A DNA stretch of 64,000 nucleotides from an uncultured Candidatus Saccharibacteria bacterium (GTDB lineage: Bacteria; Patescibacteriota; CAZHWT01), in assembly GCA_964554805.1 (NCBI GenBank), contig CAZKPX010000004.1, positions 72,439 through 136,438 on the forward strand. Reading direction: 5' to 3'. Below, piece by piece: positions 1-50,795 of this stretch. Every line of letters begins with the position of its first letter. Positions within the stretch are counted from its first letter, which is position 1. The notes beneath the pieces were generated by a model. That model was not told the origin of the DNA and made no database searches. It saw only the letters and a list, made by a program, of their open reading frames with translations. A program made the translations under genes and the position numbers.

Positions 1-328
1 CAACACAACCCAAAACAATACAGACAACACCGGTAATGGCTAGTGAGATATGAAATTTGCGATTGGTCCAAATTGACCAATACCAGAATTTATACCAGAC
101 AGCTTGGTTGGTGCGCTTAGAGCGGTTGATTAAAGCGGAGGGAGATTTGGCTTTGGGCGTTTTAGGCCTAGCCGAGGATTCAATAGTAATAGTTTTCATA
201 GACATAATTCGACAGGTTTTAGTATACCAAACGAGCAAGCTTATTTATATGGTTAGTGGTCTCGTGTCTCAATATCCGCCAGCCAAGCTGGCTGCATCGG
301 GGTAATGTAGTTCGCTTGATGAGGGGTT

Positions 329-884
329 GGAAAGGCAAAAATCAAAAGGCAAAGGGCAAAAATTAAAGTTAAAAATCAAAGCCCAAAGTTACAAGTAGTG
401 CCAAGTTAGCCAGTATTCGTCATTGTGAGGATCCGCCAGCTGGCGGAGACGTGGCAATCTAGGAGGATTGATGATTGCCTGTTGGCTTAAGAGTGTCATT
501 ATTGTTTGTCCTGGATTGCCGCTCCGCCGGTTGGCGGATCGCAATGACGTTGCAGGGGGGGGCGTCATTGCTTCTGTTCTGGATTGCCGCTCCGCTTGTT
601 GGGGGATGGCAATCTAGCTGTGACTGATATATTTTTCTCAAGTTACATTCGGCCAAAAGCCATTGTTTTTGTATGTCATTTTTTCACCTCAAATAAACAT
701 TTTTTACTAACCTTTGTGTCTATGGGTAGTATTGAATTTGCTTAGGGGCTCTCCCCGTCAAGCTAGGAGACCAGTATTTGAGGTGAAAGAAATGAATACA
801 AGGGTTTTTATTTAAATGCAGAAGACAGTTGCAGCTACTTTGTATTTTTAACTTTAATCTTTGCCTTTTGACTTTTGCCTTTCC
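329..884 (+). repeat. MITE-like composite repeat, copy a (long form). It has terminal inverted arms, internal palindromic GGATTGCCGCTCCGCC..GGCGG and CGTCATTG..CAATGACG modules, and a hairpin core at about 651-810.
   Basis: The left arm aaaggcaaaaatcaaaaggcaaagggcaaaaattaaagttaaaaatcaaag is inverted at the right end as ctttgtatttttaactttaatctttgccttttgacttttgcctttcc. The core ccaaaagccattgtttttgtatgtcattttttcac..ctaggagaccagtatttgaggtgaaagaaatgaataca is shared with the copies at 29.1, 32.5 and 39.9 kb. No ORF is present. Confidence 0.6.
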
Positions 885-964
885 AATACCCCATCAAGTT
901 GACTGGATTGCCGCTCTGCCAGCTGGCGGGTTAGGCTATCTGCTCTTTTTACCTCCCGCCTAGC

Positions 965-9008: not shown

Positions 9009-9040
9009 GACGAGAACGAGTACGGGAACGAGTACGAGGA
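9009..9040 (+). repeat. Short tandem repeat (AACGAGTACG-type) in the leader of the 8973 operon.
   Basis: gacgagaacgagtacgggaacgagtacgagg. It is related to the GCGACGAGTACGAG tract at 63.7 kb. Confidence 0.5.
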
Positions 9041-19001: not shown

Positions 19002-20600
19002 CTATGGCGCGAGATAAAAATCGAACAAATGATCCTTGTCGGGCCAGAGGTAGGTTTGGTCTTCTAGGTTGGGGAGGTCGTAGTTGAAGTATTGGCGGAA
19101 GACGGTGCGGAAGGAGTTGACGGGGGTGATGGTGGGGTAGAGTTGGCTGTAGTTCTGGTCGGGGAAGTAGTAGGCGTTGAGGATTTGAGTGCGTTCTTGG
19201 ATAGCAGTGTCGGAGGCACCATCAAATTTCCAGTGGTGGCCGGTGGGGCTGATCATGGCTTCGGGGCCCTCATCGCTCTGGAGAATGATAATGGGTGGTT
19301 GGGTTGAGTTGGCTAGAATAGTGTCGATGGCCTGCATGGCCCTACTGTTGGCGCATTTGACCTGTTCGATGTAATTGGCCGGGCTGATTTCCCAGCGCTG
19401 CAGAGGTTGCTGGAGTAGATTGCAATCAGCATCATAGACGTAGGGGTCATGAGGCATAAGCAGGTGGGTCATGACAAATTTTTGCCCTGTTTGCTTGGTT
19501 GCTTGCAGGAGTTGCTGCTGGCCGAAGTCTGCCCAGCGATAATGCTGATCAAAGCCTAGCCCGAGTGGGTAATTAGTGGTTAATCCAGCTAATTCTGGAT
19601 AGTAGGATGTCTCGAGGAGTTGCCTGGTGAAGCTACTGGTGGTTATAAAATCTGACCAGTTGGCCATGATGTTGGTGTCGGCTACCTCGATGTTGCTGGC
19701 TAGCTCGTAATAATTGCCAACGTGGAAATAGGTGTAGCCAAGCGACTTGAAGATTTGGCCGGCCTTGTGATTTCTCATTAAGACTGAAGCGGTATCGGTG
19801 TCAGAGACACCGTCGGCCTGAGTATCGACCAGGCTTTGCAGATAATCTAGATTGAGGGTTGAGGAAAGTGAAAACAGGGTTTTGGGGTAGTTGGTGTTGG
19901 AATCAGTGGCTAGATAGAACTGCTTTTGAGCCAGATAATCGATTAGCTGTTGGTTATCATAGTCATAGTATTCAGCTTGAGTTTTGGGTGAGGCGTAACG
20001 ATCGAGGACGATGTAATAGATATCGGGTTGACTTGCAGCGACAAGCGATGAGTGATGAGCGACAGGGAGGACTTGGGTGGCCTGAAGTGCTTGCTGTCTG
20101 GCCTCGGAGCTGGCAAATAAGCCTGGAACAATTTGGATGAGAGGGCCGACAAGAAGAATAATGCCGACGAGGCTAATTAGTTTAATAAAACGTATCGATG
20201 GCCAGGTAGTCTGCCGACCGGCAGATTTCATAGCCATGACGACCAGCACTATTGCCACAAGTATATACAATAGCCAGACAGCGACTTTGGCTTGATCGGC
20301 TTCCAGCCACTGACCAAAAATCACAGTCAGGCTATTGAAGCTAAAGAATGTGACAACCAGCGTCAGGCTGATTAGAGCGGCAAAGGTTGGTTTTTTGGTT
20401 AAGAATGCCAAACCTATTTGGATAACTACGACGACAAAGGTTGTAAAAAGGAGCGGTTCAATCACCTGGTTTATAGTGGTGCCGTGAATATTGGTGGCGA
20501 ACAAGCTGAGAATTGCGAACCAGCTGAAGAGAATGGCTGGGGCTAGGCTTAGGAGCGACGAGCGACGAGCGACGAGCGACGAGGTGAATCGGTTGAGCAT
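19002..20600 (-). CDS. Membrane-anchored alkaline-phosphatase-superfamily protein, paralog 2. It carries a heptamer SSR in codons 7-17.
   Basis: Same architecture as 17308-18930 (IYYIVLDRYA, LLMPHDPY, AYYFPDQNY, NSFRTVFRQYFN). The N-terminal SSLVARRSSLL is encoded by (GAGCGAC)x4. Confidence 0.4.
   Translation of the reverse strand: MLNRFTSSLVARRSSLLSLAPAILFSWFAILSLFATNIHGTTINQVIEPLLFTTFVVVVIQIGLAFLTKKPTFAALISLTLVVTFFSFNSLTVIFGQWLEADQAKVAVWLLYILVAIVLVVMAMKSAGRQTTWPSIRFIKLISLVGIILLVGPLIQIVPGLFASSEARQQALQATQVLPVAHHSSLVAASQPDIYYIVLDRYASPKTQAEYYDYDNQQLIDYLAQKQFYLATDSNTNYPKTLFSLSSTLNLDYLQSLVDTQADGVSDTDTASVLMRNHKAGQIFKSLGYTYFHVGNYYELASNIEVADTNIMANWSDFITTSSFTRQLLETSYYPELAGLTTNYPLGLGFDQHYRWADFGQQQLLQATKQTGQKFVMTHLLMPHDPYVYDADCNLLQQPLQRWEISPANYIEQVKCANSRAMQAIDTILANSTQPPIIILQSDEGPEAMISPTGHHWKFDGASDTAIQERTQILNAYYFPDQNYSQLYPTITPVNSFRTVFRQYFNYDLPNLEDQTYLWPDKDHLFDFYLAP
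20553..20583 (+). repeat. Heptamer microsatellite (GAGCGAC)x4 inside the N-terminal coding region of the 19002-20600 gene.
   Basis: gagcgacgagcgacgagcgacgagcgacgag. A 7-nt unit in an ORF means a gain or loss of one unit shifts the frame. Confidence 0.8.
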
Positions 20601-20603
20601 AAC

Positions 20604-22046
20604 TTACTTCTTTTCTAGTAGGTATAGGATCCGGTGGCTATCTTTGATTGGGGTGGCTTTGGTAATTTTGAAATATTGACCAAAAGCAGCCTCAAATCCC
20701 TCCTTGGTGTAGTCAGTGAAAATATCCTGCCGGGTAGCTAACAGAATCTGGACTTGGGAATCCTGTTTGGGGATGAATTCAACGATGGCTCCCTTATGCG
20801 ACAACTGGTGGAACAACAGGGCAATCTTGGCTAAGGGGATGTTGAGAGGGATAGCCAGGTGATGGACGACCGCCAGTCCCATAATGGCATCGGCTTGAAT
20901 ACGATCCAGAATAGCCCGACGCTCGGTATTGTGCCAGCCAATGCCTGGGCTGGGGTTGGCAATGTCTGACACCAAAGGCAGGATACTGCCTTTGGTGGAG
21001 CGACTAGCGACGGGCGACGAGCGACGAGCTTCTGATTTGAGGTATTGGTAGAGGCTGTCGACTGCTAAGGGGTCGATGTCGAGGGCGATGGTTTGGATGC
21101 CTTGATCTGCCGCAACCATGCTAAATAAGCCGGTATTGGCACCGATGTCTGTGGCTGATTTTGCTTTGAGTTGCTTGAGATAGTCCCCCACTAATTGCTG
21201 CTTGTGTTGGAGGGCTTGGTCGACATAGTTGTTGTTATTGATGTAATAGCTGGCCCACTCGGTGTTTTGGCCTTTGGCTTTGAGCTTTTTGACTGCTGAC
21301 TCTAGACTATCCAACATGCCCAGCAATGATTGCAGACTGACTTGACCAACAGATGTAGATTGAGAAGCGGCTTGGAGATTTTTTGAGGCATCGGAAGCAT
21401 GACTGACTTGGTTCTTACCGTGAAGATGGATATGGATTAGCAGGCCGGGTCGGAGACGAGAAGCTGGGGGCAGGAGACGGGAGGCTAGGTCTAGAGGGAT
21501 GCCGTCAATATTCGTCTGGAGTAATTGCTGCAGGCGGAGATCGGTATGGGCCATTAAGGCTAGCGGGGCCAGGAAATGTTGGCAGAATTGTTTGTAGGCA
21601 ACCCAGGGCTTTGGCTGGTAGGCTTCAAAAGACAAGGTGTCAATTAAAACTGGCTGATTGGCCACAAATTGGATATTGTAAGCCGTTGCATCTTTGAGAC
21701 TCATGCCATGTTTGAGGGCTGTTTTTTGAAGATGAAGGGTTAGGAGCGCCGCATCTTGCAGCTGGCTAAATGACCATTCATACGGATAGGATATGACCGG
21801 AATATGCTCAGGTTTAATAATTTTATAGGCCTGCTGAAAGGGGTGGTTTGTTAACTTGACCTCTTGATGAGCTACCATAGCTTGCTGGTCAACAAGAGTC
21901 TGATATAGGCCGGAGCTGTGTAGCAGGTCATAGTTTTTCTGGTATGAATCAGAAACTGCCCGATAGATGGTGTCGTCTTGGTAAAAGACAGTGCCGCTGG
22001 GATCGCGGAAGGATGAAGATTCAAGCTTGGTAGTGTCTTTAGGCAT
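20604..22046 (-). CDS. Two-domain protein with a C-terminal class I SAM-dependent methyltransferase. It carries a GCGACGR heptamer tract in the coding sequence.
   Basis: DIGANTGLFSMVAADQG..ALDIDPLAVD is a SAM-binding fold. EARRSSPVASRSTKG is encoded by the gcgactagcgacgggcgacgagcgacgag tract at 21000-21028. Confidence 0.5.
   Translation of the reverse strand: MPKDTTKLESSSFRDPSGTVFYQDDTIYRAVSDSYQKNYDLLHSSGLYQTLVDQQAMVAHQEVKLTNHPFQQAYKIIKPEHIPVISYPYEWSFSQLQDAALLTLHLQKTALKHGMSLKDATAYNIQFVANQPVLIDTLSFEAYQPKPWVAYKQFCQHFLAPLALMAHTDLRLQQLLQTNIDGIPLDLASRLLPPASRLRPGLLIHIHLHGKNQVSHASDASKNLQAASQSTSVGQVSLQSLLGMLDSLESAVKKLKAKGQNTEWASYYINNNNYVDQALQHKQQLVGDYLKQLKAKSATDIGANTGLFSMVAADQGIQTIALDIDPLAVDSLYQYLKSEARRSSPVASRSTKGSILPLVSDIANPSPGIGWHNTERRAILDRIQADAIMGLAVVHHLAIPLNIPLAKIALLFHQLSHKGAIVEFIPKQDSQVQILLATRQDIFTDYTKEGFEAAFGQYFKITKATPIKDSHRILYLLEKK
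21000..21028 (+). repeat. Heptamer microsatellite (GCGACKR)x4 inside the methyltransferase-domain gene.
   Basis: gcgactagcgacgggcgacgagcgacgag. Confidence 0.7.
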
Positions 22047-25830: not shown

Positions 25831-25868
25831 ACACTATTTAGGTTACAGGGGTAATAGGCAAGCGTCAA

Positions 25869-25887
25869 GCGTCAAGCATAGGAGGAA
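25869..25887 (+). repeat. GCGTCAA heptamer repeat in the leader of the rfbB operon.
   Basis: ggcaagcgtcaagcgtcaagc. Confidence 0.6.
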
Positions 25888-25963: not shown

Positions 25964-25984
25964 GGCGACGGGCGACGGGCGACA
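25964..25984 (+). repeat. GGCGACG heptamer x3 in the leader of the rfbB operon.
   Basis: ggcgacgggcgacgggcgaca. Confidence 0.7.
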
Positions 25985-26050
25985 TGTGGAGACCAGTTCG
26001 ATGGGAAAGGAATGAATGAAGGAGACTGAGGCACCTTTGGTGGCGGATAT

Positions 26051-26156
26051 CGAGACAGGAGACGCGGGACAGGAGGATTGTCAGTAATCTTTGATTTTTG
26101 ATTTTAATTTTTGCCTTTTGCCCTTTGCCTTTTTCCTTTTGCCCTTTGCCCTTTGC
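26051..26156 (+). repeat. Solo right arm of the MITE-like element (copy b): GGAGACAGGA tract plus TIR.
   Basis: cgagacaggagacgcgggacaggaggattgtcagtaatctttgatttttgattttaatttttgccttttgccctttgcc.. The last about 50 nt are read as the C-terminus of the Mur-ligase ORF (..[17 protein letters not shown]). Confidence 0.6.
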
Positions 26157-27411
26157 CGAGCGCTTTCTCTACAGCTGTTTGGTCTGACCAGGGGATTTCT
26201 TGGCCTTGGATGGCTAGGCTTTGTTCGTGGCCTTTGCCGGTAATTAATACTACGTCTCCCTTTTGAGCCATGGCGATGGCTTGGTTTATGGCTTGTTGTC
26301 GATCGTCGAGGCGCTGCCACTGTTTGCCCTGTACTCTACCCTGTTGAGTAAGACCATCGATGATCATTGATTGTATTGTATCCAAAGACTCAAAGCGGGG
26401 GTCCTCCATGGTGAGGATGGAGAAATCTGCCCATTGGCCGGACAGCTGACCGAAGGTTGAGCGCTTGGATTGATCACGTTGAGCTGCTGAGCCAAAAACA
26501 TGAATTAATGCGCCGTTGCCTGTGACTAATTTTTTAGCTTGAGGCAGTACTTGAGCTAAGGATTGTGGCGTATGGGCGAAGTCAATAATGATGGTGTATG
26601 GTGTAGTTTGGACTACCTGCCAGCGACCATCGACCGCTTTGACCGCTGCCAAGCCTTGTCTAATGGCTGACTCAGAAACTTCGAGGCATACCGCGATAGC
26701 GGTTGCTGCTAAGGCATTTGAAACATTGTATTCACCCGGTAAGAAGACTTGCAAGTCTTGGATCGACTTGGTTTTGCTTAATTTGGGAGAAATTTTACTA
26801 TTGAAAGTCGTTGATTGATCGGTTTGCTGCGTAATCGTGCCGAGTAAATCGGCTGGCTGAGACTGGCTAATAGTCAGGAGCGAGGGGTGGGTGGATATAA
26901 GCTGGGTCAATGGTGGACTGTCTATATTTATGATTGTGTGCTGCGACTGCTTGATAATCATGGCTTTGGCTTGAAGGTATTTATCCATAGTGCGGTGATA
27001 ATCGAGATGTTCCGGGCTCAGGTTGGTAATTAGTCCAACCCTAAAATTAAGACCAAAGGTTCGATATTGGTCCAGGCCATGTGAGGTAGTCTCAATAACG
27101 ACATGGCTGACACCTGCCTGTTTCATCTGATGCAACATAGCATATATTTCGGTTGGACCGGGTGTTGAGGTATGAAGGCCAGTTTGGAGATGTTGGCCGT
27201 TGATCTGCGCACCTAGGGTTGAGATGTGGCCGACTGTATGACCAGCCTGCTCCAATATGCTGGAGACAAGATGGGTGGTGGTGGTTTTGCCATCGGTGCC
27301 GGTAATACCAATCAAAATTAAATGTTTGTGTGGCTGGCGGAAGCGAATCATTGCTGCTGCGCTTAAGAGTATATTGATCAGTCGACGGGCAAGAATTCTG
27401 AGATGAATCAT
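26104..27411 (-). CDS. Mur-ligase-family protein (MurT/MurE-like central and C-terminal domains).
   Basis: P-loop GITGTDGKTTT and a Mur ligase middle-domain block, TSHGLDQYRTFGLNFRVGLITNLSPEHLDYHRTMDKYLQAKAMI. The N-terminus MIHLRILARRL resembles the MurT N-terminus. There is no Zn-ribbon. The C-terminal about 16 aa derive from the repeat. Confidence 0.55.
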   Translation of the reverse strand: MIHLRILARRLINILLSAAAMIRFRQPHKHLILIGITGTDGKTTTTHLVSSILEQAGHTVGHISTLGAQINGQHLQTGLHTSTPGPTEIYAMLHQMKQAGVSHVVIETTSHGLDQYRTFGLNFRVGLITNLSPEHLDYHRTMDKYLQAKAMIIKQSQHTIINIDSPPLTQLISTHPSLLTISQSQPADLLGTITQQTDQSTTFNSKISPKLSKTKSIQDLQVFLPGEYNVSNALAATAIAVCLEVSESAIRQGLAAVKAVDGRWQVVQTTPYTIIIDFAHTPQSLAQVLPQAKKLVTGNGALIHVFGSAAQRDQSKRSTFGQLSGQWADFSILTMEDPRFESLDTIQSMIIDGLTQQGRVQGKQWQRLDDRQQAINQAIAMAQKGDVVLITGKGHEQSLAIQGQEIPWSDQTAVEKALGKGQRAKGKRQRAKGKN

Positions 27412-27986
27412 GTGCTTGGAAATAACTCAGGGAATTTTCGCTGAGCCATCAGTATAGCTGTGATGGCCTGGCCGTTGGTCAATTGGCCCGATTCAATAAG
27501 CTGATTGATTTGTTTTAGGGTGAATTTTTTAACTTGCGATACCTCATTGGTATCGGTGTGAGGCTGTTGCTGCACCTGTTGTGCCACAAAATAGATGGCC
27601 TGTTCATCTGAGACGGAGGGGCATGGATGAATACGAGCCAATTTGGACCATTGTTGCGCTTTGAGTCCAGCCTCTTCCAATAACTCACGCTGGGCTGCTA
27701 CTAAGGGCGATTCGTCTGCTGATTCTATGCCTCCCATTGGAATTTCCCAGGCAAAGCGCTGTATGGGATAACGCCAGACTTCGACTAGATAGATACCGCC
27801 ATCCCGATCGACCGGCACAATTGCGACCGACTTGGATAAGGATCTATAAGAATAGACACCTGGCCGACCATCAGGATGAATAATCTGATCTTCGACAATG
27901 GTCATAAATTGGTTTTGGTACGCTATCTTGCTATCGACAGTGGTATACGGTGAGTCAGGTGCTGGCTTAGTCATGATTATAGCCAT
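27408..27986 (-). CDS. NUDIX hydrolase (ADP-ribose/nucleotide-sugar pyrophosphatase-like).
   Basis: NUDIX box GGIESADESPLVAAQRELLEEAGL. The start is refined to an internal Met so that it overlaps the galE stop by only a few nt. Confidence 0.7.
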   Translation of the reverse strand: MAIIMTKPAPDSPYTTVDSKIAYQNQFMTIVEDQIIHPDGRPGVYSYRSLSKSVAIVPVDRDGGIYLVEVWRYPIQRFAWEIPMGGIESADESPLVAAQRELLEEAGLKAQQWSKLARIHPCPSVSDEQAIYFVAQQVQQQPHTDTNEVSQVKKFTLKQINQLIESGQLTNGQAITAILMAQRKFPELFPST

Positions 27987-28959
27987 TTGGATGTGCTGCA
28001 TGCCATTGCCAAGCTGATTTAATAATATCTTCGAGTTGACTATGCTGGGGTTGCCAGTTGAGTTTTTGCTGCAGTTTTTCTGATGAGGCAATCAGCTGAT
28101 CGGGGTCGCCCGGGCGGCGCTGACCATACTCAACTGTAAAATCTTTGGCGGTGACTTGTTTGACCATATCCACTACCTGTTGATTGGAGTATCCTTGGCC
28201 GGTTCCGACATTGAATTGATCAGAAACTCCGCCGGCGACTAAATATTCCATGGCTTTGAGATGAGCGCTCGCTAGATCGGCGATGTGAATATAATCTCTG
28301 ACACAAGTACCATCGGGAGTATTGTAGTCTTGACCAAAGATAGTAATATGTGGACGTTGGCCTGTGGCTGCCTGAATAACTAATGGAATAAGGTGTGATT
28401 CGGGCTGATGAGCTTCGCCGCGACTACCGTCTAGCGCTGCACCGGAGGCGTTGAAATAACGGAGGCAGACACTGGTCAGGCCGTGAGCTTGATCCATCCA
28501 TTTCAGCATGTCTTCCATCATTAATTTGCTTGCACCATAGGGATTGGTGGGGACTTTGGGATCGTCTTCTTGGATTGGCACTTGGACTGGATTGCCGTAG
28601 ACTGCAGCGGTCGAGGAGAAGACGACATGTTTGATGCCATGATCATGGATGGCCTTGAACAGAACCAGCGAGCCCGCTACATTGTTTGAAAAATACTTGG
28701 CTGGCTGCTCGACAGATTCGCCGACTTGAATGTAGGCTGCAAAATGGATTAAACCATCAAATGCTTGGTCTGTTAAAAGACTGTCTAATAATTGTCGATC
28801 ATCGATTCGACCTGTGACTAATGTAACCGAGTCAGGCAAGGCCTGAGCATGGCCGAATTCTAACGAGTCTAAAACGGTCACTTGATGACCGGATTCCACT
28901 AAGTGGTTGACTGTTTCTGAGCCAATATAACCTGCTCCACCGGTGACGAGAATATTCAT
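27967..28959 (-). CDS. galE: UDP-glucose 4-epimerase.
   Basis: MNILVTGGAGYIGSETVNHL, a YxxxK motif (YGASKLMMEDMLKW), 330 aa, and a GalE-like C-terminus. Confidence 0.8.
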   Translation of the reverse strand: MNILVTGGAGYIGSETVNHLVESGHQVTVLDSLEFGHAQALPDSVTLVTGRIDDRQLLDSLLTDQAFDGLIHFAAYIQVGESVEQPAKYFSNNVAGSLVLFKAIHDHGIKHVVFSSTAAVYGNPVQVPIQEDDPKVPTNPYGASKLMMEDMLKWMDQAHGLTSVCLRYFNASGAALDGSRGEAHQPESHLIPLVIQAATGQRPHITIFGQDYNTPDGTCVRDYIHIADLASAHLKAMEYLVAGGVSDQFNVGTGQGYSNQQVVDMVKQVTAKDFTVEYGQRRPGDPDQLIASSEKLQQKLNWQPQHSQLEDIIKSAWQWHAAHPNGYNHD

Positions 28960-28994
28960 GTCTTTAGCTTAAATGTCTGGAGACGTAGCGTCAA

Positions 28995-29395
28995 GGGGAA
29001 GGGGGAGGCAAAAGGCAAAGGTCAAAAGGCAGAAATTAAAGTTAAAAATCAAAGGTTGCTTACGACTATGACATTGCGATCTGACGGCAAACGAAGTCAT
29101 AGCGGCAATCTTGTTTGATTATATTGCTGGCCCGGCAAAATGCATTCGGCCAAAAGCCACGTTTTTGTATGTCATTTTTTCACATCAAATAAACATGCCC
29201 TAGTATGGATAGATAATTTGGGTGAGGATATACTTATTTACTAGCTCTCCTTGGTCAGGCTAGGAGACCAGTATTTAATGTGAAAGAAATGAATACAGGG
29301 GGTTTATTAAATGCAGAAGGCAGAAGGCAGTCGCAGTTACTTTGTATTTTTGACTTTAATTTCTGCCTTTTGATTTTTGCCTTTTAACTTTAATT
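28995..29395 (+). repeat. MITE-like composite element, full copy c (TIR arms plus hairpin core at about 29148-29310).
   Basis: The left arm ggcaaaaggcaaaggtcaaaaggcagaaattaaagttaaaaatcaaag is inverted at the right as ctttgtatttttgactttaatttctgccttttgatttttgcc. The core ccaaaagccacgtttttgtatgtcattttttcacatcaaataaaca..ctaggagaccagtatttaatgtgaaagaaatgaataca is present. Confidence 0.65.
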
Positions 29396-30197: not shown

Positions 30198-31235
30198 TTA
30201 CTTGATTGACTCTGTCTTTAGAGAGTCAGTCATTGATTGGGCTGCTTTGGCCAGGTTGTCGCCTGCGCGAAGGCGGCCGAAGGACAATTTGAAATATGAA
30301 ATTGCACCAATAATAGTTACTGGCACAACCTGAGTGATGTGGAGTATGACGGCATAAGCGGCTGCTTGATTAGTGTCAACGCCAAGCAGGCCCAAACAGA
30401 TGACAACAATGCCATGGAACGTGCCAATACCAGCTGGGCCCGAGGGGATGCTGGTGCCTAGATTGGACAAAGAAACCAGGAATAACCATTCCATCGGTGA
30501 AAGTACCAAGCCAAAAGCTTGGCCAACTAGGAAATAGACTAGACTCTCGCATAGCCATATGAAGATACTATTAGTGATCGTAATGGCTAATAAGCGCTTT
30601 GAGCGCAGTGGCAACAACCCCTCACGAAACCGTTGCAATTGAGTTATGCCCCATGCAATAGCCTTATCGGCCCAAGCAGGTGCCAGATTTTCCAGAAATC
30701 GTCGGACCTGAGATAAATGCTCATCTTTGCCGATAACAAGCCAAATGAGCGCTGCCATAACCAGGCCGAAAACAACAAATCCGATGGTTAGAATTTGGAT
30801 TACCCAACTAGGAAAAGGCAGGAACGAGATTGTGAGCAGTAGTATGCTGAGCAGGACTAACCCATCTATAACTCTGCCCAAGAGAGTCACCGCTAGCGAC
30901 GAGCTAACTGGAATACCTTCGTTTTGTCGAACCACATATGATAACAAAACCTCACCTGCTCGGGCAGGCAAGACATTGTTGGCCATGTAGTTAATAGTAA
31001 TATATTGATAACTTCGGCCCAGTGAGAAGGCTTTTAATGAGGCTAAAATCTTCCGGAATCTTTGGGCCCTAAATACGAAACTGAACAGAGAAACGGCTAT
31101 GGCTGGAACAAGCCACCAATAGGCAGCCTCGGATAGTGCTTTGAGGACATTTTCCAGATGAAGCGAGCTGGCCAATAAAATTATAAAGGCTACGCTTAGC
31201 GCCATGCCGAGGATAGGAGTAATTTTCGATTTCAT
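30198..31235 (-). CDS. Lysylphosphatidylglycerol-synthase-TM-region family protein (flippase-like domain protein).
   Basis: 345 aa with about 8 TM helices. The basic motif FRAQRFRKIL after TM2 is typical of the LPG_synthase_TM / UPF0104 family. Confidence 0.5.
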   Translation of the reverse strand: MKSKITPILGMALSVAFIILLASSLHLENVLKALSEAAYWWLVPAIAVSLFSFVFRAQRFRKILASLKAFSLGRSYQYITINYMANNVLPARAGEVLLSYVVRQNEGIPVSSSLAVTLLGRVIDGLVLLSILLLTISFLPFPSWVIQILTIGFVVFGLVMAALIWLVIGKDEHLSQVRRFLENLAPAWADKAIAWGITQLQRFREGLLPLRSKRLLAITITNSIFIWLCESLVYFLVGQAFGLVLSPMEWLFLVSLSNLGTSIPSGPAGIGTFHGIVVICLGLLGVDTNQAAAYAVILHITQVVPVTIIGAISYFKLSFGRLRAGDNLAKAAQSMTDSLKTESIK

Positions 31236-31332
31236 ACTTGATAAGGATACAGGAAATTATTGAACGATTCTAGATTCCAGAATCCAGACTATAGCTAAGA
31301 CTCATATGTATATGCTATCAATCGTTATAGGC

Positions 31333-31635
31333 TTACAGAACCTTGCCTTGACTGTCTGCAGGGAGTTGCTGGCGCAGTATTTGAGCTGGCCCCGAAGCTT
31401 GGGGGTGAGTAATAAAATCTTCAACTGCTAATGGTGTAGTGGATGGAATAAGCGGGTTGAGTTGACGCTGTTGCTGTTCTTCTATCTGGCGCAAATCATT
31501 ATGACGAAAATCCCAAGTCTCTTGCAGGCTCAAGACTGTAGGCTGATTTATAAATAAATAAATTATGATGGCGTCAAAGACAAGCAGGCCGAAGGTAATG
31601 GCCCACATGCGCAGCGGCGTAAAGAAAGTACCCAT
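31333..31635 (-). CDS. Small membrane protein.
   Basis: 100 aa with an N-terminal TM helix. No homology recognised. Confidence 0.3.
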   Translation of the reverse strand: MGTFFTPLRMWAITFGLLVFDAIIIYLFINQPTVLSLQETWDFRHNDLRQIEEQQQRQLNPLIPSTTPLAVEDFITHPQASGPAQILRQQLPADSQGKVL

Positions 31636-31690
31636 ATAGTCTATTATATCATACTATGGGCTACTTGTCAAGATTGTGGGATGCGGATGG

Positions 31691-31938
31691 GAAGGCAAAG
31701 GGCAAAGGGCAAAAGGTAAAAATTAAAGTAGAAAATCAAAAATTACATATGCGCCACTGTGAGCCCTGATTGGATCGGGATAAACTCCGTGCGGCAATCG
31801 GGGAGATATCCTAGATTGCCACGTCATTTCATTCCTCGCAATGACGAATACTGGCTAACTTAGCACTACAGCACTACTTGTAACTTTGGGTTTTAACTTT
31901 TAACTGTAATTTTGCCTTTTGCCTTTTGATTTTTGCCT
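31691..31938 (+). repeat. MITE-like element, short symmetric copy d (TIR arms plus a central palindromic module, no hairpin core).
   Basis: ggcaaagggcaaagggcaaaaggtaaaaattaaagtagaaaatcaaa ... tcctcgcaatgacgaatactggctaacttagcactacagcactacttgtaactttggg (the reverse complement of the 383-433 module of copy a) ... ttttgccttttgccttttgatttttgcc. Confidence 0.6.
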
Positions 31939-31942
31939 TGGT

Positions 31943-32278: not shown

Positions 32279-32420
32279 ATGCAGATGGCTACCATTCAGC
32301 TGGCTATGACCTTTATTATACAACCAACACATGGGCAAAACTACAAGCAAGCATAGGGGAAGGGTGAGAGGCTGAAGGCAGGGGGATTGTGTATCTTTAT
32401 CTGGCATAGCTGTAAGTGTA

Positions 32421-32745
32421 GGGCGGCAATCTAGTATGGGTTTATTATTCACACACAAGAATGCAATCGACCAAAAGCCATTGTTTTTGTATGTCATTTT
32501 TTCTTGCCAAATAAACACGACTTACTAGCTAATGAATGCCGGGATGAGTTTTTACATGATCTACTAGATCTTCTTGCCTAGGCTAGGAGACCAGTATTTA
32601 GCAAGAAACAAATGAATACAGGGTTATATAAAATGCAGGAGACAAGAGACAGGAGGCAGGAGACGCGGGACGCGACGGCGGGGATTGTCAGTAATCTTTG
32701 ATTTTTGACTTTAATTTTTACCTTTTGCCTTTTGATTTTTGCCTT
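32421..32745 (+). repeat. MITE-like element copy e (hairpin core at about 32470-32640, GACAAGA/GGCAGGA heptamer tract, right TIR arm).
   Basis: ccaaaagccattgtttttgtatgtcattttttcttgccaaataaaca ... ctaggagaccagtatttagcaagaaacaaatgaataca ... gacaagagacaggaggcaggagacgcgggacgcg ... ttgtcagtaatctttgatttttgactttaatttttaccttttgccttttgatttttgcc. The right arm supplies the cmk C-terminal tail. Confidence 0.65.
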
Positions 32746-33460
32746 GTCTTTCCAAGTACTTATCAATATAGCGAGATATTTGCTCGACCGTCTGGTTGAT
32801 GGTGTTGTTTGTACTGTCGATAACAACTGCCCCTTCGGCCAGACGTAGGGCTGAATAAGCCCGTTCAGTATCGCGTCGATCTCGCTCAGCTATCTCTGAA
32901 TAGACTTGCTCAAACGAAATATCCTGACCCGCGTCGATATAATCAACATGGCGCCTCTGGGCTCTGACCTCTACTGATGAAGTCAGAAAAAACTTCATAT
33001 CAGCTTCGGGATACACCGTAGAACCAGTATCGCGCCCTTCCAAGACTGCTCCGTTTTTAGTCTGCTTTACCAATTGGCGCTGATAGTCTTTCATTAGCTG
33101 TCGGACTGGCAGCAATGTGCCGGCCAAGGAAGCTGCTTCTGCAACTTGAGAGTTGCGGATATGGTCGGTAACATCCTGATCCCCTACTTTAATATAACTT
33201 TTTGGGCCAGTGTCTTGAGGATTGGCAGTGAAGGTGATGGGGAACTTGTTTAACAGTTCAACAAGTTGGGCAACAGATTGTTCGTTTAAACGTATATTGT
33301 GCTGCAAGGCTAGCCAGGCTACAGCCCGGTAGCAGGCACCGCTGTCGATATTATCTAAACCATACCTTCGAGCTACCAGATATGAAATAGTTCCTTTGCC
33401 CGAGCCGGCTGGACCATCTATCGTAATGACTAAGCGTCGCTGAGTCATTGCGAGGGACAT
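32711..33460 (-). CDS. cmk: Cytidylate kinase.
   Basis: ITIDGPAGSGKGT P-loop and YLVARRYGLDNIDSGACYRAVAW. The start is set at M(TQRRLV). The last about 12 aa (GKNQKAKGKN) are encoded by the repeat arm. Confidence 0.8.
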   Translation of the reverse strand: MSLAMTQRRLVITIDGPAGSGKGTISYLVARRYGLDNIDSGACYRAVAWLALQHNIRLNEQSVAQLVELLNKFPITFTANPQDTGPKSYIKVGDQDVTDHIRNSQVAEAASLAGTLLPVRQLMKDYQRQLVKQTKNGAVLEGRDTGSTVYPEADMKFFLTSSVEVRAQRRHVDYIDAGQDISFEQVYSEIAERDRRDTERAYSALRLAEGAVVIDSTNNTINQTVEQISRYIDKYLERQGKNQKAKGKN

Positions 33461-33512: not shown

Positions 33513-35180
33513 CTATCTTTTATCCCCACCAGCTTGGCTGGCGGCGGCGATAAAGTCGCGGAATAGCGGATGGGCTTGGGTGGGCCGGGACAGAAACTCG
33601 GGATGGAATTGGACTCCGATAAAGAAGGGGTGATTGGGTATTTCGACCATTTCAACAAGCTGACCATCTGGCGAGGTGCCGCTAATTATCATGCCGGCTT
33701 CTTCTAATGGCTGTCTGTAGACATTATTAAACTCATAGCGATGGCGATGGCGCTCATGAATAGCACTTTGTTGGTACGCTTGATACGCCAACGTGCTGGG
33801 CTTAACTTTGCAGGCCCAATCTCCCAAACGCATACTACCACCGTACTCCTGCTTGAGCAGCTTCTTTTGTTGGTCGGGCATGATGTGAACAATGGGATGC
33901 TTGGTTTTTGGGTCTACCTCGGTTGAATTGGCATTTTTGAGACCTGCTACATTTCTGGCAAACTCGATGGTGGCCATCTGCATGCCGTAGCATAACCCAA
34001 GATATGGCTTATTGTGCTGACGAGCGAATTTGACTGCAGCTATCATGCCTTCAATGCCCCGAGAACCGAAGCCTCCCGGCACGCAAATACCATCCATTTC
34101 GGCCAGTTTGTCAGTCCCTTCTTGTTCAATCTTTTCGGCATCCACCCAAAATAACTGGGGATCTAGGCCATGATGCCAGGCAGCATGCTTCAGGGCTTCG
34201 ATAACCGATACATAAACATCTTCCAGAACGAAATCTCCGGTAGCAAAGTATTTGCCGATTAGCCCGATTTTGACTGGCTTTTTGGCTTTGGCGATCGTTT
34301 TGTTGAGGGCAACCCAATCATCTAAGTTCTTGTCTTTGACCGGTAAGCCCATCTTTTCCAGTAACCGCTCGGCGACGTGCTGTTTGTCTAGAATTAGCGG
34401 CACCTGATAAATGCTATCGACATCGGGATTAGAAATGACATCTTCTGCCTGAACATTGGTGAAAAGTGAAATCTTCTCACGGCGGGTTTTATCGATACTG
34501 GCCGTTGATCGACCAACGATCATATCTGGCTGAATACCCATTGAATTGAGGGCGCGAACCGACTGCTGAATTGGCTTGGATTTCATTTCTCCCAAGGTAC
34601 CAGGAATGGGCAAATAGCCAAGATGAAGCTGGAAGACATCATGCGGATTCTTGAGCTTCATAATGCGCGAAGCTTCTAAAAATAACACATTCTCATAATC
34701 CCCTACTGTGCCACCCAGCTCGATGATAACGACATCGGCTTTATGACGACGGCCGGCCGCTTTGACTCTGTCGATAATTTCATTAGTAATGTGAGGGATG
34801 GGCTGGACCGTTATGCCTTGATATTCAAAGGCTCGCTCTTTTTTGAGAACAGTGTCGTAGAGCATGCCATTGGTGAGATAGTTGGCTCTGTCGAGGTCCA
34901 TGCCAAGGAAACGTTCGTAATTACCAAGATCTTGATCTGTCTCTAAGCCGTCTTGGGTAACAAAGACTTCGCCGTGCTCTTGGGGTCGCAAGGTGCCAGC
35001 GTCCATGTTGAAGTACATATCTATCTTCATGGGCGAGACTGTATAGCCCGAGGCTTTTAGTAATAAGCCGATTGAAGCCGAGGTTATTCCTTTGCCAATT
35101 CCTGAGATAACACCACCGGTAACGAATAAATACTTTGTTGGCATAGTTCCCCCTTTATAGTGACGAGCGACAAGCGACAA
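33513..35180 (-). CDS. pyrG: CTP synthase.
   Basis: KYLFVTGGVISGIGKGI at the N-terminus and a glutamine amidotransferase domain (GLCYGMQ, HPEF). 555 aa. Confidence 0.95.
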   Translation of the reverse strand: MSLVARHYKGGTMPTKYLFVTGGVISGIGKGITSASIGLLLKASGYTVSPMKIDMYFNMDAGTLRPQEHGEVFVTQDGLETDQDLGNYERFLGMDLDRANYLTNGMLYDTVLKKERAFEYQGITVQPIPHITNEIIDRVKAAGRRHKADVVIIELGGTVGDYENVLFLEASRIMKLKNPHDVFQLHLGYLPIPGTLGEMKSKPIQQSVRALNSMGIQPDMIVGRSTASIDKTRREKISLFTNVQAEDVISNPDVDSIYQVPLILDKQHVAERLLEKMGLPVKDKNLDDWVALNKTIAKAKKPVKIGLIGKYFATGDFVLEDVYVSVIEALKHAAWHHGLDPQLFWVDAEKIEQEGTDKLAEMDGICVPGGFGSRGIEGMIAAVKFARQHNKPYLGLCYGMQMATIEFARNVAGLKNANSTEVDPKTKHPIVHIMPDQQKKLLKQEYGGSMRLGDWACKVKPSTLAYQAYQQSAIHERHRHRYEFNNVYRQPLEEAGMIISGTSPDGQLVEMVEIPNHPFFIGVQFHPEFLSRPTQAHPLFRDFIAAASQAGGDKR

Positions 35181-35187
35181 GAACGAG
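35161..35187 (+). repeat. GCGACAA-type heptamer repeat at the pyrG start.
   Basis: tgacgagcgacaagcgacaagaacgagc. Confidence 0.6.
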
Positions 35188-35332
35188 CATATGCAATGAT
35201 AAGCACGAAATGATAGAGGCCCGTTCAGGCCCGAAAGCTAGATTATGTTTTTTTGAGGGGATTAAAGAGAAGTTAATAGAGTGCCCTTCTAAGAATACTG
35301 GCTTAACGGCTGCGCCGTCAAGCGCGACGGGC

Positions 35333-35430
35333 GACAAGCGACAGGCGACCAGCATTTGTTCAGTATTCAATTTGAACTGAATTTCCTCGTCGCACGTCGC
35401 TTGTCGCTTGTCACTATCGCTAAGCGATAA
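35333..35430. repeat. Inverted arrays of GCGACRR heptamers in the tsaC-pyrG intergenic leader, a large palindrome.
   Basis: gcgcgacgggcgacaagcgacaggcgacc .. ttcagtattcaatttgaactgaa .. gtcgcacgtcgcttgtcgcttgtc, followed by the palindrome ctatcgctaagcgatag. Confidence 0.7.
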
Positions 35431-48126: not shown

Positions 48127-48453
48127 TTAACCTACCTTAATCAATTCGACTTCAAAGAGAAGGTCTGAATTGGCGGGGATTGAGCCGACGCTGCGGCTGC
48201 CATAGCCTTTGGCGGCAGGGATGGTGAGCTTGCGCTTGCCGCCTTCTTTCATGCCAGGGATGCCTTCGATCCAACCATCGATCAGTGAGCCAGGATTAAG
48301 AGCAAAGGCAATTGGTTCGCCACGATCGTAGGAGGAATCGAACTTTGTTCCATCCGTAAGCGTGCCGAGATAGTGGACCGTTATGGATGAGCCGACAGTA
48401 GCTTCTGCGCCTTGTCCGACATTTACTTCTTCAATACTTACTTGATCATTCAT
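48127..48453 (-). CDS. FKBP-type peptidyl-prolyl cis-trans isomerase (soluble).
   Basis: FKBP domain blocks VHYLGTLTDGTKFDSSYDRGEPIAF and GWIEGIPGMKEGGKRKLTIPAAKGYG. Confidence 0.8.
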   Translation of the reverse strand: MNDQVSIEEVNVGQGAEATVGSSITVHYLGTLTDGTKFDSSYDRGEPIAFALNPGSLIDGWIEGIPGMKEGGKRKLTIPAAKGYGSRSVGSIPANSDLLFEVELIKVG

Positions 48454-48983: not shown

Positions 48984-49066
48984 GTGAGGTAGTTTACAGA
49001 GAATGTCTATTGGGTGTCAAACTGCAACAACCAAGCTTATTGACACTTTGAAGCTGCCGCGATACC

Positions 49067-50730: not shown

Positions 50731-50795
50731 GCAGCAACCAGCTTTGCGCCTCATTGTGGGGCAATATCTGGCTATATTAGTCTATCTTTGTTACC

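What the first reader, a model, noticed from the sequence alone, without database searches (positions are those of the whole stretch)
35333..35430. GCGACRR heptamer arrays, including a large palindrome, in the leaders of the pyrG, greA, rfbB and GT4-operon transcripts.
Tracts lie at 35161-35187 and 35333-35430 (inverted arrays around ttcagtattcaatttgaactgaa, plus ctatcgctaagcgatag) between tsaC and pyrG. Others lie at 63686-63719 upstream of greA, at 25869-25887 and 25964-25984 upstream of rfbB, and at 9009-9040 upstream of the 8973 operon.

All are in the same plus-strand orientation and all lie in 5' leaders of minus-strand operons. They could be slippage-prone spacers that tune promoter strength, binding sites for a repeat-recognising regulator, or attenuator-type structures. 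The last is a real possibility for pyrG, whose leader is regulatory in several bacteria.
Basis: partly seen in the sequence, partly recalled or inferred. Interest (0 to 1): 0.6.

Follow-up and report, generated by a model that had tools for sequence, protein, structure and literature searches.

The report
Seven-base repeat tracts between genes
The GCGAC repeats are real, but they are one family of seven-base "microsatellite" tracts and hairpin-forming repeat elements that have invaded the gaps between genes in this one lineage of ultra-small (CPR) bacteria; they are not a dedicated control element for pyrG, greA or rfbB.

Summary
The GCGACRR tracts exist and are far beyond chance: 53 hits against 17±3.6 expected, and 11 tandem pairs against 0 in 200 shuffles.

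Period-7 arrays are the dominant short repeat in the window. A second family (TTTGCCY/RGGCAAA) forms the inverted ends of a 250-560 bp dispersed hairpin element, "X", with 5-6 copies. Two GCGAC arrays lie inside ORFs. The tract at 9010-9038 is a hexamer.

The genome is Patescibacteria (CPR). Ten genomes share the same gene order. Four have heptamer arrays, each with its own heptamers, and six have none.

All ten keep the pyrG promoter and a conserved start of the transcript (GGGCAC in eight, GGCA in two). In the window this core lies between the arrays. The 94-nt GCGAC palindrome sits between the tsaC stop codon and the pyrG -35 box, so it is outside pyrG's own transcript. At greA, rfbB and the GT4 operon the arrays lie upstream of or over the promoter, and rfbB and GT4 look leaderless.

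Best reading: these are lineage-specific heptanucleotide simple-sequence repeats plus MITE-like hairpin insertions. They are a new instance of a known phenomenon. Probable side effects are 3'-end hairpins, and possibly frameshift switches where arrays lie in ORFs.

The parts
35157..35181 (+). Array A: ATAGTGAC + GAGCGAC AAGCGAC AAG. It lies in the pyrG 5' UTR, directly upstream of the Shine-Dalgarno sequence (AAAGGGGG). It is a near copy of the reverse complement of array C.
   Evidence: I2: 22 nt, 95% complementary to 35396-35417, including the non-repeat 8-mer ATAGTGAC/GTCACTAT
35324..35352 (+). Array B: GCGACGG GCGACAA GCGACAG GCGAC. It is the left arm of the palindrome and ends 2 nt from the pyrG -35 box.
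35353..35385 (.). Tip of the hairpin, with its own small palindrome TTCAGT-ATTCAATTTGA-ACTGAA (35359-35381).
   Evidence: (unique in the window)
35386..35417 (-). Array C: inverted GCGAC-type heptamers forming the right arm of the palindrome. It ends 3 nt from the tsaC stop codon (35420-35422).
   Evidence: B-C folds at -50.9 kcal/mol as RNA (z = -6.6) and at -26.1 kcal/mol as DNA (z = -4.75).
35292..35321 (-). pyrG promoter TTGACG-18-TATTCT. It is native and conserved in relatives.
35255..35286 (-). Conserved start of the pyrG transcript: GGGCAC (35286-35281), then the C-rich tract CCCCUC (35260-35255). It is independent of the arrays.
   Evidence: Compared with the B. subtilis pyrG initially transcribed region GGGCTC (PMC7039003).
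63686..63719 (+). GCGACGG x2.9 array with degenerate flanks. It lies between the stop codon of the upstream gene (~63784) and the greA promoter.
63626..63654 (-). greA promoter TTGACA-17-TATAAT (12 of 12 matches). The greA ATG is at 63540.
25964..25984 (+). GGCGACG x2.9 array at the left border of the partial X5 element, 134 nt upstream of the rfbB-like ATG.
25859..25877 (+). CAAGCGT x2.7. On the - strand it reads TTGACGC TTGACGC TTGCCT, i.e. a 7-bp duplication of the -35 box of the rfbB-like promoter (TTGACG-17-TAACCT-9 nt-ATG).
   Evidence: The orthologous promoter in L003 reads TTGAACcTTGCCT...TAACCT.
9010..9038 (+). ACGAGN hexamer/12-mer array over the -35 region of the probably leaderless GT4 operon (TATAAT, 8 nt, ATG). 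It is not a GCGACRR heptamer array.
20553..20583 (+). GAGCGAC x4.4, perfect. It occupies codons 6-16 of a 532-aa membrane ORF in the polysaccharide cluster. Adding or removing one unit gives a stop within 14-49 codons.
20998..21029 (+). GAGCGAC-type x4.6 array inside a 480-aa SAM-methyltransferase-like ORF. It encodes a loop (aa 340-350) just after motif I.
315..900 (+). X1: full copy of the dispersed hairpin element. It has inverted RGGCAAA/TTTGCCY arrays at both ends.
29006..29387 (+). X2: full copy. Its right end abuts the stop codon at 29390. Its left end is 12 nt from a TTGACG -35 box.
39837..40237 (+). X3: full copy between ftsE and prf. It lies at an inversion breakpoint relative to the related genomes.
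32460..32745 (+). X4: core plus right end. It supplies the last codons and the stop codon of cmk.
25985..26157 (+). X5: right part only. It supplies the last codons and the stop codon of the Mur-ligase gene.
31692..31939 (+). X6: both X ends around a different, REP-like interior. It is inserted between the tsaB stop codon and a conserved leaderless promoter.

Best explanation
The GCGACRR tracts are one sub-family of heptanucleotide simple-sequence repeats (7-bp microsatellites, comparable to cyanobacterial STRRs). These repeats have proliferated in the non-coding DNA of this particular Patescibacteria (CPR) lineage.

How they arise and where they survive:
- They arise by 7-bp duplication or slippage. 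The rfbB -35 box, with one extra TTGACGC unit, shows this directly.
- They persist where a compact genome tolerates them: between an upstream stop codon and the -35 box of the next gene, in UTRs, and in protein loops or N-termini.

Link to hairpin elements:
- Inverted arrays form the arms of non-coding, hairpin-forming repeat elements.
- The X family is 250-560 bp long, has TTTGCCY/RGGCAAA ends, and carries internal RRG[A/C]GAC arrays that differ from GCGACAA by one base.
- The 94-nt B-C palindrome behind tsaC looks like a miniature member of this class.
- These elements are lineage-specific insertions into spacers that are short in syntenic relatives. They are MITE-like, but their means of spreading is not established.

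What they are not: the conserved regulators of pyrG, greA or rfbB. The native pyrG promoter and transcript start sit between the arrays and are conserved without them.

Inferred, not shown:
- In transcripts reading out of tsaC, the B-C hairpin (and its pairing with array A) forms a very stable 3' structure. This could terminate, insulate or be processed.
- The perfect in-ORF array at 20553-20583 could switch that gene on and off by frameshifting.
For: 1. Period 7 dominates the short tandem repeats. My strict scan finds 13 arrays, against 0-3 for every other period from 4 to 12; TRF lists more.
2. Of 24 period-7 arrays, 20 touch the 10% of the window that is non-coding (p = 8e-17).
3. The heptamer sequence differs between species. 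L002 has TAATCGC and CGAATAA. L003 has TCCACAG, TCCAAAG and CAGTAGA. L165 has AGAAACG and AATACAG.
4. Distribution is patchy. Among ten genomes with the same gene order (PyrG 72-79% identical), four are array-rich and six have no arrays in 6.8-21.7 kb each.
5. Orthologous spacers are much longer in the window than in L162-L164. cmk-tsaB is 433 nt against 13-112. tsaB to the next gene is 307 against 58-70. DUF5667-epimerase is 430 against 22-110. For tsaC-pyrG the window has 275 nt and L162-L164 and L166 have about 130-200. The native promoters downstream are retained.
6. The self-comparison and the alignment define the X copies, which are 78-95% identical. Their ends are 73-87% complementary.
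7. The X core has a 25-bp stem that is 99% paired, with 4 compensatory pairs.
8. The X-internal arrays (- strand GTCTCTT, GTCCCGC, GTCGCG) are one mismatch from array B (GTCGCTT). The string caaatRctggtcKcc followed by cTTGACGg is shared by the X core and the pyrG spacer.
9. The pyrG promoter and transcript start are invariant across the aligned relatives.
10. The B-C hairpin folds at -50.9 kcal/mol (z = -6.6).
11. No Rfam family matches any of this.
12. Over-representation of heptamer simple-sequence repeats in some bacteria, including inverted arrays that form stem-loops, is documented (PMC4692102; PMC4679880).
Against: - No target-site duplication was recognisable at the X ends, and no transposase is encoded in the window. 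Transposition is therefore unproven.
- All X copies have the same orientation, which is unusual for a freely transposing MITE.
- Array lengths are identical in two independent read-set assemblies. The tsaC-pyrG spacer matches 281 of 281 nt in L001. The X3 left end is identical in L169. High slippage rates are therefore not demonstrated, although the samples are probably the same population.
- The homology of the B-C hairpin to X rests on short matches, which would be expected by chance about 0.2 times (my estimate).
- A function for the hairpins is inferred from position and stability only.
Confidence: 0.65

Rival explanations
1. Contingency (phase-variation) repeats. Gain or loss of 7-bp units switches or tunes expression, either by frameshifting ORFs or by changing promoter-upstream geometry.
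For: The most perfect array (GAGCGAC x4.4) occupies codons 6-16 of a membrane ORF in the polysaccharide cluster. A second array sits in the adjacent methyltransferase-like ORF. Adding or removing one unit gives premature stops. This is the classical layout of phase-variable surface-structure genes. Heptamer simple-sequence repeats drive phase variation at the Haemophilus hmw promoters (PMC12721329 and PMC8262952, listed).
Against: No intergenic array lies between a -35 and a -10 box. No length variation was seen between the two sample assemblies that cover arrays. Most arrays are imperfect, at 75-90% identity, which lowers slippage. The same repeats occur throughout non-coding DNA.
Confidence: 0.12
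2. Binding sites for a repeat-recognising protein, either a DNA-binding regulator or nucleoid protein, or a ring-shaped RNA-binding protein of the HutP or TRAP kind. This protein would coordinate the flagged operons.
For: The arrays are regularly spaced, mostly in one orientation, and often lie directly upstream of -35 boxes. MacGregor proposed a post-transcriptional regulator for TAACTGA heptamer repeats (PMC4679880).
Against: Several unrelated heptamers coexist in one genome, and each species has its own. Six syntenic relatives lack arrays yet keep the same promoters. Arrays also occur inside ORFs and at 3' ends of genes. The genes next to the arrays have no common function.
Confidence: 0.1
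3. A pyrG attenuator or riboregulator. Alternative pairing of array C with B or with A would control read-through or Shine-Dalgarno access in response to pyrimidines.
For: Array C can pair with B (27 nt, 81%) or with A (22 nt, 95%). The whole spacer folds at -98 kcal/mol with z = -4.96. pyrG leaders are regulatory in Bacillus (PMC7039003).
Against: B and C lie upstream of the conserved pyrG promoter. The UTR transcribed from that promoter has no unusual structure (z = -0.23). No U-tract follows the hairpin. Relatives keep the promoter and the transcript start but have no arrays. The conserved GGGC start and C-rich tract are the better candidate for CTP control.
Confidence: 0.06
4. An invertible promoter switch. 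The inverted repeats A and C (and the X ends) would be recombination sites that flip the enclosed promoter.
For: The 22-nt, 95% inverted repeats, which include the non-repeat 8-mer ATAGTGAC/GTCACTAT, flank 217 bp that contain the pyrG promoter. One X copy sits at an inversion breakpoint relative to related genomes.
Against: No invertase or recombinase is encoded in the window. The orientation is the same in the independent assembly L001. All X copies have one orientation. Switching pyrG off is an odd thing to evolve.
Confidence: 0.04

Closest known systems
Heptanucleotide simple-sequence repeats in bacteria. These include the cyanobacterial STRRs (Calothrix/Nostoc), GGGAATC in Xanthomonas and GGGGAYT in Nostoc (Rehm et al. 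2015, PMC4692102). Heptamer over-representation was noted by Mrazek et al. 2007, as cited in Rehm et al.
   Same: The unit is 7 nt and arrays have 2-8 or more copies. They are strongly intergenic. Length and sequence vary between related genomes. Some occur as inverted pairs able to form stem-loops. The RGGCAAA arrays, such as GGGCAAA repeats, even have G-quadruplex-type spacing.
   Different: The host is a CPR/Patescibacteria genome, with no HIP1 octamer (0 GCGATCGC in 64 kb). The heptamer sequences are different. Several families coexist, and they are built into a dispersed hairpin element. My literature searches found no report for CPR.
TAACTGA direct repeats of Beggiatoaceae, Cyanobacteria and Bacteroidetes (MacGregor 2015, PMC4679880)
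   Same: These are heptamer direct repeats in intergenic DNA, close to gene starts, with occasional copies inside ORFs. Their function is unknown and their phylogenetic distribution is patchy.
   Different: That case involves one conserved heptamer shared across phyla, mostly a few nucleotides upstream of start codons. Here the heptamers are species-specific and mostly lie upstream of promoters or behind stop codons.
Bacterial MITE-like hairpin repeats: Correia elements in Neisseria, ERIC, RUP, pneumococcal BOX, and the small dispersed repeats embedded in heptamer repeats in Nostoc (Elhai et al. 2008). This comparison rests on my own knowledge. A MITE review (PMC10969869) is listed.
   Same: They are non-coding, 100-600 bp long, and have terminal inverted repeats. 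They occur as multiple dispersed copies in intergenic spacers next to promoters and gene ends. They can form long hairpins. They can supply stop codons and C-terminal tails. They are present or absent at orthologous sites.
   Different: The termini here are tandem heptamer arrays of variable copy number rather than a fixed inverted repeat. No target-site duplication and no partner transposase were found. All copies seen have one orientation.
Bacillus subtilis pyrG attenuation by CTP-sensitive reiterative transcription (PMC7039003)
   Same: The pyrG transcripts of this clade are predicted to start with GGGC(A), followed by a C/U-rich tract. This is conserved in 8 of the 10 genomes (GGC in the other two).
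   Different: This concerns the conserved leader core, not the heptamer arrays. A terminator hairpin is evident only in some relatives (L004, L164). Nothing has been tested experimentally.

Membership tests
Heptanucleotide intergenic simple-sequence repeats (STRR-like) | Head-to-tail direct repeats of a 7-nt unit, at least 2-3 copies | tested here: met
   TRF and my own period scan. There are 11 exact GCGACRR pairs 7 nt apart, against 0 in 200 shuffles.
Heptanucleotide intergenic simple-sequence repeats (STRR-like) | Period 7 over-represented relative to other unit lengths | tested here: met
   13 arrays of period 7, against 0-3 for each other period from 4 to 12. The same holds in L002 and L003.
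Heptanucleotide intergenic simple-sequence repeats (STRR-like) | Concentrated in non-coding DNA | tested here: met
   20 of 24 arrays touch the 10.1% of the window that is non-coding (p = 8e-17).
Heptanucleotide intergenic simple-sequence repeats (STRR-like) | Length or sequence varies between related genomes at orthologous spacers | tested here: met
   Each species has different heptamers, and six syntenic relatives have none. Between two samples of the same population the arrays are identical.
Cyanobacterial STRR proper (STRR1-3) | Cyanobacterial host and STRR consensus heptamers | tested here: not met
   The closest genomes are Patescibacteria metagenome-assembled genomes. HIP1 is absent. 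The heptamers are different.
MITE | Short non-coding element with terminal inverted repeats | tested here: met
   The X ends are 39-81 nt long and 73-87% complementary. No ORF is conserved (frames differ between copies).
MITE | Multiple dispersed copies | tested here: met
   There are 5-6 X copies in 64 kb. The B-C hairpin itself is single-copy in the window.
MITE | Target-site duplication flanking each copy | tested here: inconclusive
   Inspecting the flanks of X1-X6 showed no common direct repeat, but the variable-length arrays blur the ends.
MITE | Empty orthologous sites (presence/absence) | tested here: met
   The spacers that hold X2, X4 and X6 are 13-112 nt in L162-L164.
MITE | Cognate transposase with matching inverted repeats elsewhere in the genome | not testable with these tools
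   No transposase is encoded in the window. The rest of the source genome was not retrievable.
Transcription attenuator of pyrG | Lies between the transcription start and the start codon | tested here: not met
   B and C lie upstream of the conserved promoter at 35321..35292. Only array A is in the UTR.
Transcription attenuator of pyrG | Terminator hairpin with a U-tract and an alternative structure | tested here: not met
   No U-tract follows B-C. The UTR fold has z = -0.23.
Transcription attenuator of pyrG | Conserved among relatives | tested here: not met
   Six syntenic relatives have no arrays, while the promoter and the GGGCAC or GGCA transcript start are conserved.
Phase-variable simple-sequence-repeat locus | Repeat inside an ORF, or between the -35 and -10 boxes, so that a change in unit number switches expression | tested here: met
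   Met for the two in-ORF arrays, where one unit more or less gives premature stops. Not met for the intergenic arrays.
Phase-variable simple-sequence-repeat locus | Unit number varies within or between populations | not testable with these tools
   Only assemblies are available. The Logan contig L170 breaks at the 20553-20583 array, which is expected because the repeat recurs at 20998.

The most novel reading that the evidence does not exclude
The heptamer arrays may be the working termini of a previously undescribed kind of small mobile hairpin element in CPR bacteria. It would insert precisely between a stop codon and the next -35 box. Its ends would be made, or extended, as tandem 7-bp units by a lineage-specific enzyme present only in the array-rich genomes. 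As a by-product, the same repeats would create frameshift (phase-variation) switches in surface-polysaccharide genes of these epibiotic bacteria.
Probability: 0.15. Interest if true: 0.6.

Novelty: new member of a known kind. Interest (0 to 1): 0.35.

Why it matters
CPR/Patescibacteria genomes are regarded as small and streamlined. This one nevertheless carries dense heptamer microsatellites and 250-560 bp hairpin elements. They roughly double to twenty-fold lengthen spacers, supply stop codons and Lys/Gly tails to two genes, and sit at an inversion breakpoint. Such repeats are therefore an active force in CPR genome evolution.

There is also a practical point. Assemblies break at these arrays, as at the ends of the L002, L001 and L170 contigs.

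For the original question, the result is a warning. A striking repeat next to pyrG is not its regulator. The conserved GGGC start of the transcript is the better candidate for that role.

The in-ORF arrays in a glycan cluster give a concrete, testable candidate for phase variation in an uncultured epibiont.

Tried and rejected
- Cyanobacterial STRR/HIP1 origin. This was my first guess. I rejected it because there is no GCGATCGC in 64 kb and the relatives are Patescibacteria.
- Known RNA families. Rfam found nothing at gathering thresholds. In the E<=1 scan the only hit was a spurious plant miRNA match on the X3 array.
- A small ORF in X (MNTG...). Rejected because the frames and stops differ between copies.
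- X in relatives, viruses or phages. There was no match in 168 fetched loci, in IMG/VR for an exact 34-mer, or in phage records by blastn.
- Strain-level variation. No PyrG closer than 79% exists in the collections. Two Logan contigs from sister samples are identical over the arrays. A third breaks at the array. One look-up found nothing.
- Strand of the X hairpin. The - strand gives 18 G.U pairs and 8 mismatches, against 1 and 25 on the + strand. However, that structure was predicted on the - strand. Consensus folds are similar on both strands, -31.0 against -26.9 kcal/mol. I left this undecided.
- -35-like reading of the heptamers. On the gene strand they read TTGTCGC, TTGCCYT and TTGTCTC. 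I dropped this as a general explanation because the heptamers of L002 and L003 are not -35-like.
Full report

Yes. The sequence at 35161-35187 and 35324-35417 reads as described. GCGACRR occurs 53 times in the window against 17.0 +/- 3.6 in shuffles. Eleven hits are followed by another exactly 7 nt downstream. All eleven are on the + strand, and none occurred in 200 shuffles. The palindrome arms 35326-35352 and 35386-35412 are 27 nt long and 81% complementary.

Some details are wrong:
- 9010-9038 is a hexamer/12-mer array (ACGAGN) with no GCGAC.
- 25859-25877 is CAAGCGT.
- The two cleanest GCGAC arrays, 20553-20583 (4.4 perfect copies) and 20998-21029, were missed. Both lie inside ORFs.

**2. 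The wider repeat landscape**

Tandem repeats of period 7 are the dominant short repeat. My strict scan finds 13 arrays, against 0-3 for every other period from 4 to 12. TRF lists about two dozen. Twenty of 24 touch the 10% of the window that is non-coding (p = 8e-17).

A second and more abundant family is TTTGCCY and its complement RGGCAAA. Smaller families are AGACAAG, CAGGAGA and GCAGAAG.

A self-comparison and an alignment (A1) show that the TTTGCCY/RGGCAAA arrays are the inverted ends of a dispersed non-coding element, which I call X:
- X1 at 315-900, X2 at 29006-29387 and X3 at 39837-40237 are full copies.
- X4 at 32460-32745 and X5 at 25985-26157 are partial.
- X6 at 31692-31939 has both ends around a different interior.

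The ends are 39-81 nt long and 73-87% complementary. The conserved core contains a 25-bp stem that is 99% paired across four copies, with four compensatory pairs. Both strands fold similarly, so whether the hairpin acts as DNA or RNA is open.

Before its right end, X carries internal heptamer arrays. On the gene strand these read GTCTCTT, GTCCCGC and GTCGCG, one mismatch from array B (GTCGCTT). The X core string caaatactggtctcc...gcTTGACGgg is mirrored in the pyrG spacer as caaatgctggtcgcc-[array B]-cTTGACGg. I therefore regard GCGACRR as a variant of the X-internal family RRG[A/C]GAC. I regard the 94-nt B-C palindrome as a probable miniature relative of X. This last point rests on short matches and is an inference.

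**3. Organism and relatives**

The window is 46% G+C and has no HIP1 octamer. Its PyrG is closest (79% and 74%) to two metagenome-assembled genomes labelled Candidatus Saccharibacteria, then to Woykebacteria and Doudnabacteria. It is therefore a CPR/Patescibacteria genome.

A protein search found a clade of PyrG proteins 72-79% identical. I fetched nine of their loci. They share the gene order prf-ftsE-ftsX-M23-(vanZ)tsaE-tsaC-pyrG-cmk-tsaB-....

Heptamer arrays are dense in L002 (5 in 11.9 kb) and L003 (10 in 21.3 kb) and present in L165. Each has its own heptamers. Arrays are absent from L162, L163, L164, L166, L167 and L168. On a single-protein NJ tree the window, L003 and L165 cluster together.

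In 78 more distant Patescibacteria loci, period 7 is only mildly enriched: 47 arrays against 16-24 for periods 6, 8 and 9, in 1.3 Mb.

**4. Anatomy at pyrG**

The consensus scan finds one promoter, TTGACG-18-TATTCT, at 35321..35292 on the gene strand. The same TTGACA-N18-TAnnnT-tAGAAGGGCAC, followed by a CCCC tract, is present upstream of pyrG in every relative. It is invariant in a 7-genome alignment (A2).

It follows that:
- Array B abuts the -35 box from upstream.
- The B-C hairpin fills the space between the tsaC stop codon (3 nt away) and the promoter.
- Only array A is in the 5' UTR, next to the Shine-Dalgarno sequence.

As RNA, B-C folds at -50.9 kcal/mol (z = -6.6). The UTR made from pyrG's own promoter is no more structured than shuffled sequence (z = -0.23). 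In four array-free relatives (L162-L164, L166) the tsaC-pyrG spacer is about 130-200 nt, against 275 in the window.

Array A is a near copy of the reverse complement of C, including the non-repeat 8-mer ATAGTGAC. In read-through RNA from tsaC, C can therefore pair partly with A and partly with B. The whole spacer folds at -98 kcal/mol (z = -4.96).

**5. The other sites**

- greA: a perfect TTGACA-17-TATAAT promoter lies at 63654..63626 and the ATG is at 63540. The array lies 32-65 nt upstream of the -35 box, between the stop codon of the upstream gene and the promoter.
- rfbB-like gene: on the gene strand the sequence reads TTGACGcTTGACGcTTGCCT...TAACCT, then 9 nt, then ATG. The L003 ortholog has TTGAACcTTGCCT...TAACCT. 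The 'array' is thus a single 7-bp duplication of the -35 heptamer, which is a direct example of how such tracts begin.
- GT4 operon: TATAAT sits 8 nt before the ATG, with no Shine-Dalgarno sequence. The gene is probably leaderless, as are several others in the window, and the hexamer array covers the -35 region.
- In-ORF arrays: one encodes codons 6-16 of a 532-aa membrane protein. The other encodes a loop after SAM-binding motif I of a methyltransferase-like protein. One unit more or less creates early stops.

**6. X elements as insertions**

Comparison with L162-L164 shows that the spacers holding X2, X4 and X6 are 13-112 nt in relatives, against 307-433 nt here. The native promoters just downstream are conserved. 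An example is TTGACA-17-TATAAT, 7 nt, ATG after tsaB, with the shared string cccatagt.

The right end of X abuts or overlaps the upstream stop codon. It gives Cmk and the Mur ligase the same tail ...AKGKN*.

X3 lies where the prf gene is inverted relative to all relatives.

No target-site duplication and no transposase could be found. X has no match in the other loci, in IMG/VR or in phage records.

**7. Mechanism**

Shown:
- The tracts are 7-bp tandem repeats of several families.
- They are overwhelmingly non-coding.
- They are lineage-specific and species-specific.
- They are often arranged as inverted arms of hairpin elements inserted between stop codons and promoters.

Inferred:
- They arise by slippage or duplication. 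The literature suggests that the 7-nt preference reflects the polymerase footprint (PMC4692102).
- They spread with the hairpin elements.
- Their main molecular effect is a stable hairpin at the 3' end of the upstream transcript, acting as terminator, insulator or processing site.

Rivals are phase variation, a repeat-binding protein, a pyrG attenuator and an invertible promoter. Each is weighed in its own section. The strongest is phase variation, and only for the two in-ORF arrays.

**8. Comparison with known systems**

The closest known phenomenon is the heptameric intergenic simple-sequence repeat. Examples are cyanobacterial STRRs, Xanthomonas GGGAATC, Nostoc GGGGAYT and Beggiatoaceae TAACTGA. 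The function of all of these is still unknown.

The X elements resemble MITE-like hairpin repeats such as Correia, ERIC and BOX, and the Nostoc small dispersed repeats embedded in heptamer arrays. That comparison is from my own knowledge.

The features that define heptamer simple-sequence repeats are met. Membership of STRR proper is not met. MITE membership is incomplete, because target-site duplication and a transposase are unresolved.

I found no report of such repeats in CPR genomes. This is only the absence of a hit in the searchable library.

**9. Verdict**

This is a real and statistically strong feature, but it is a new host lineage for a known kind of repeat. Interest is moderate to low. 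The interesting residue is the hairpin element with heptamer-array ends, and the candidate frameshift switches in the glycan cluster.

Noticed in passing
window 35255-35321 (- strand); L002 120-215; L003 9355-9450; L162 9840-9935; L163-L168: The pyrG promoter and transcript start, TTGACA-N18-TAnnnT-tAGAAGGGCAC followed by a CCCC/U-rich tract, are conserved across the clade. GGGC is present in 8 of 10 genomes and GGC in the other two. L004 (Woykebacteria) has GGGCCC followed by a canonical terminator, CCCCGCaatcGCGGGGTTTTGTTTTTT. This resembles the B. subtilis pyrG GGGCTC reiterative-transcription attenuator (PMC7039003). It may be the real CTP sensor.
   Followed up: partly
window 315-900, 29006-29387, 39837-40237, 32460-32745, 25985-26157, 31692-31939: Dispersed non-coding hairpin element 'X'. 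It has heptamer-array termini, a conserved core (ttcggccaaaagccattgtttttgtatgtcattttttcacatcaaataaaca ... gctaggagaccagtatttgaggtgaaagaaatgaatacaggg) and a 25-bp inner stem with compensatory changes. All copies have one orientation.
   Followed up: yes
window 26104-26160 and 32711-32750: The Mur-ligase-like gene and cmk both end in an element-encoded Lys/Gly tail (...[11 protein letters not shown] and ...RQGKNQKAKGKN*). The stop codon is supplied by the right end of X.
   Followed up: yes
window 39756-40360, compared with L162-L164 4200-5500: The release-factor gene (prf) is divergent from ftsE in the window but co-oriented with it in all syntenic relatives. The inversion breakpoint coincides with X3.
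   Followed up: partly
window 7909-8981, 24799-25839, 27967-28965, 30198-31243, 31333-31642, 48516-48990, 50789-50798: Several genes have a -10-like hexamer (TAnnnT, often TATAAT) 6-9 nt before the ATG and no Shine-Dalgarno sequence. This suggests frequent leaderless mRNAs. The promoter after tsaB (TTGACA-17-TATAAT, 7 nt, ATG) is conserved in relatives.
   Followed up: partly
window 419-620, 900-935, 29070-29110, 31790-31850, 32420-32430, 39905-39925, 58750-58775; L003 9180-9340, 12640-12830, 17690-17740, 19440-19480, 20770-20830: REP-like palindromic motifs of the type GTCATTGCGA...TCGCAATGAC, GATTGCCGC...GCGGCAATC and CCGCCAGCTGGCGG recur in spacers of the window and of several relatives. 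They are often next to heptamer arrays.
   Followed up: no
L002 79-95 (variant near 3150); L003 19533-19549; L165 7615-7631: A small hairpin, CCCCGATTAAATCGGGG, occurs only in the three other array-rich genomes. It is absent from the other 165 loci and from the window. In L002 and L165 it lies in the tsaC-pyrG spacer next to the arrays.
   Followed up: partly
window 43528-44056: A perfect 255-bp tandem duplication (2.1 copies, 100% identity) lies inside the 2022-aa ORF 41438-47506. That ORF has no Pfam match. Other 15-18 nt in-frame repeats lie at 42493-42864.
   Followed up: no
window 9158-9766: A BrnA/CopG-type antitoxin gene (9440-9766) is preceded by a small ORF. This is a probable BrnT/BrnA toxin-antitoxin pair, transcribed divergently from the GT4 operon from the promoter TTGACT-17-TATACT at 9107-9135.
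   Followed up: no
window 48127-48453 and 48516-48983: Two adjacent FKBP-type prolyl isomerase paralogues share an 81-nt stretch at 91% identity.
   Followed up: no
window 30198-31635, compared with L162-L164, L166, L167: The HisKA-domain gene that sits between the small gene after tsaB and the LPG-synthase gene in the relatives is missing from the window.
   Followed up: no
L002 1-53; L001 3152-3172; L170 1: Public contigs end inside heptamer arrays. These repeats therefore fragment short-read assemblies of these genomes.
   Followed up: partly
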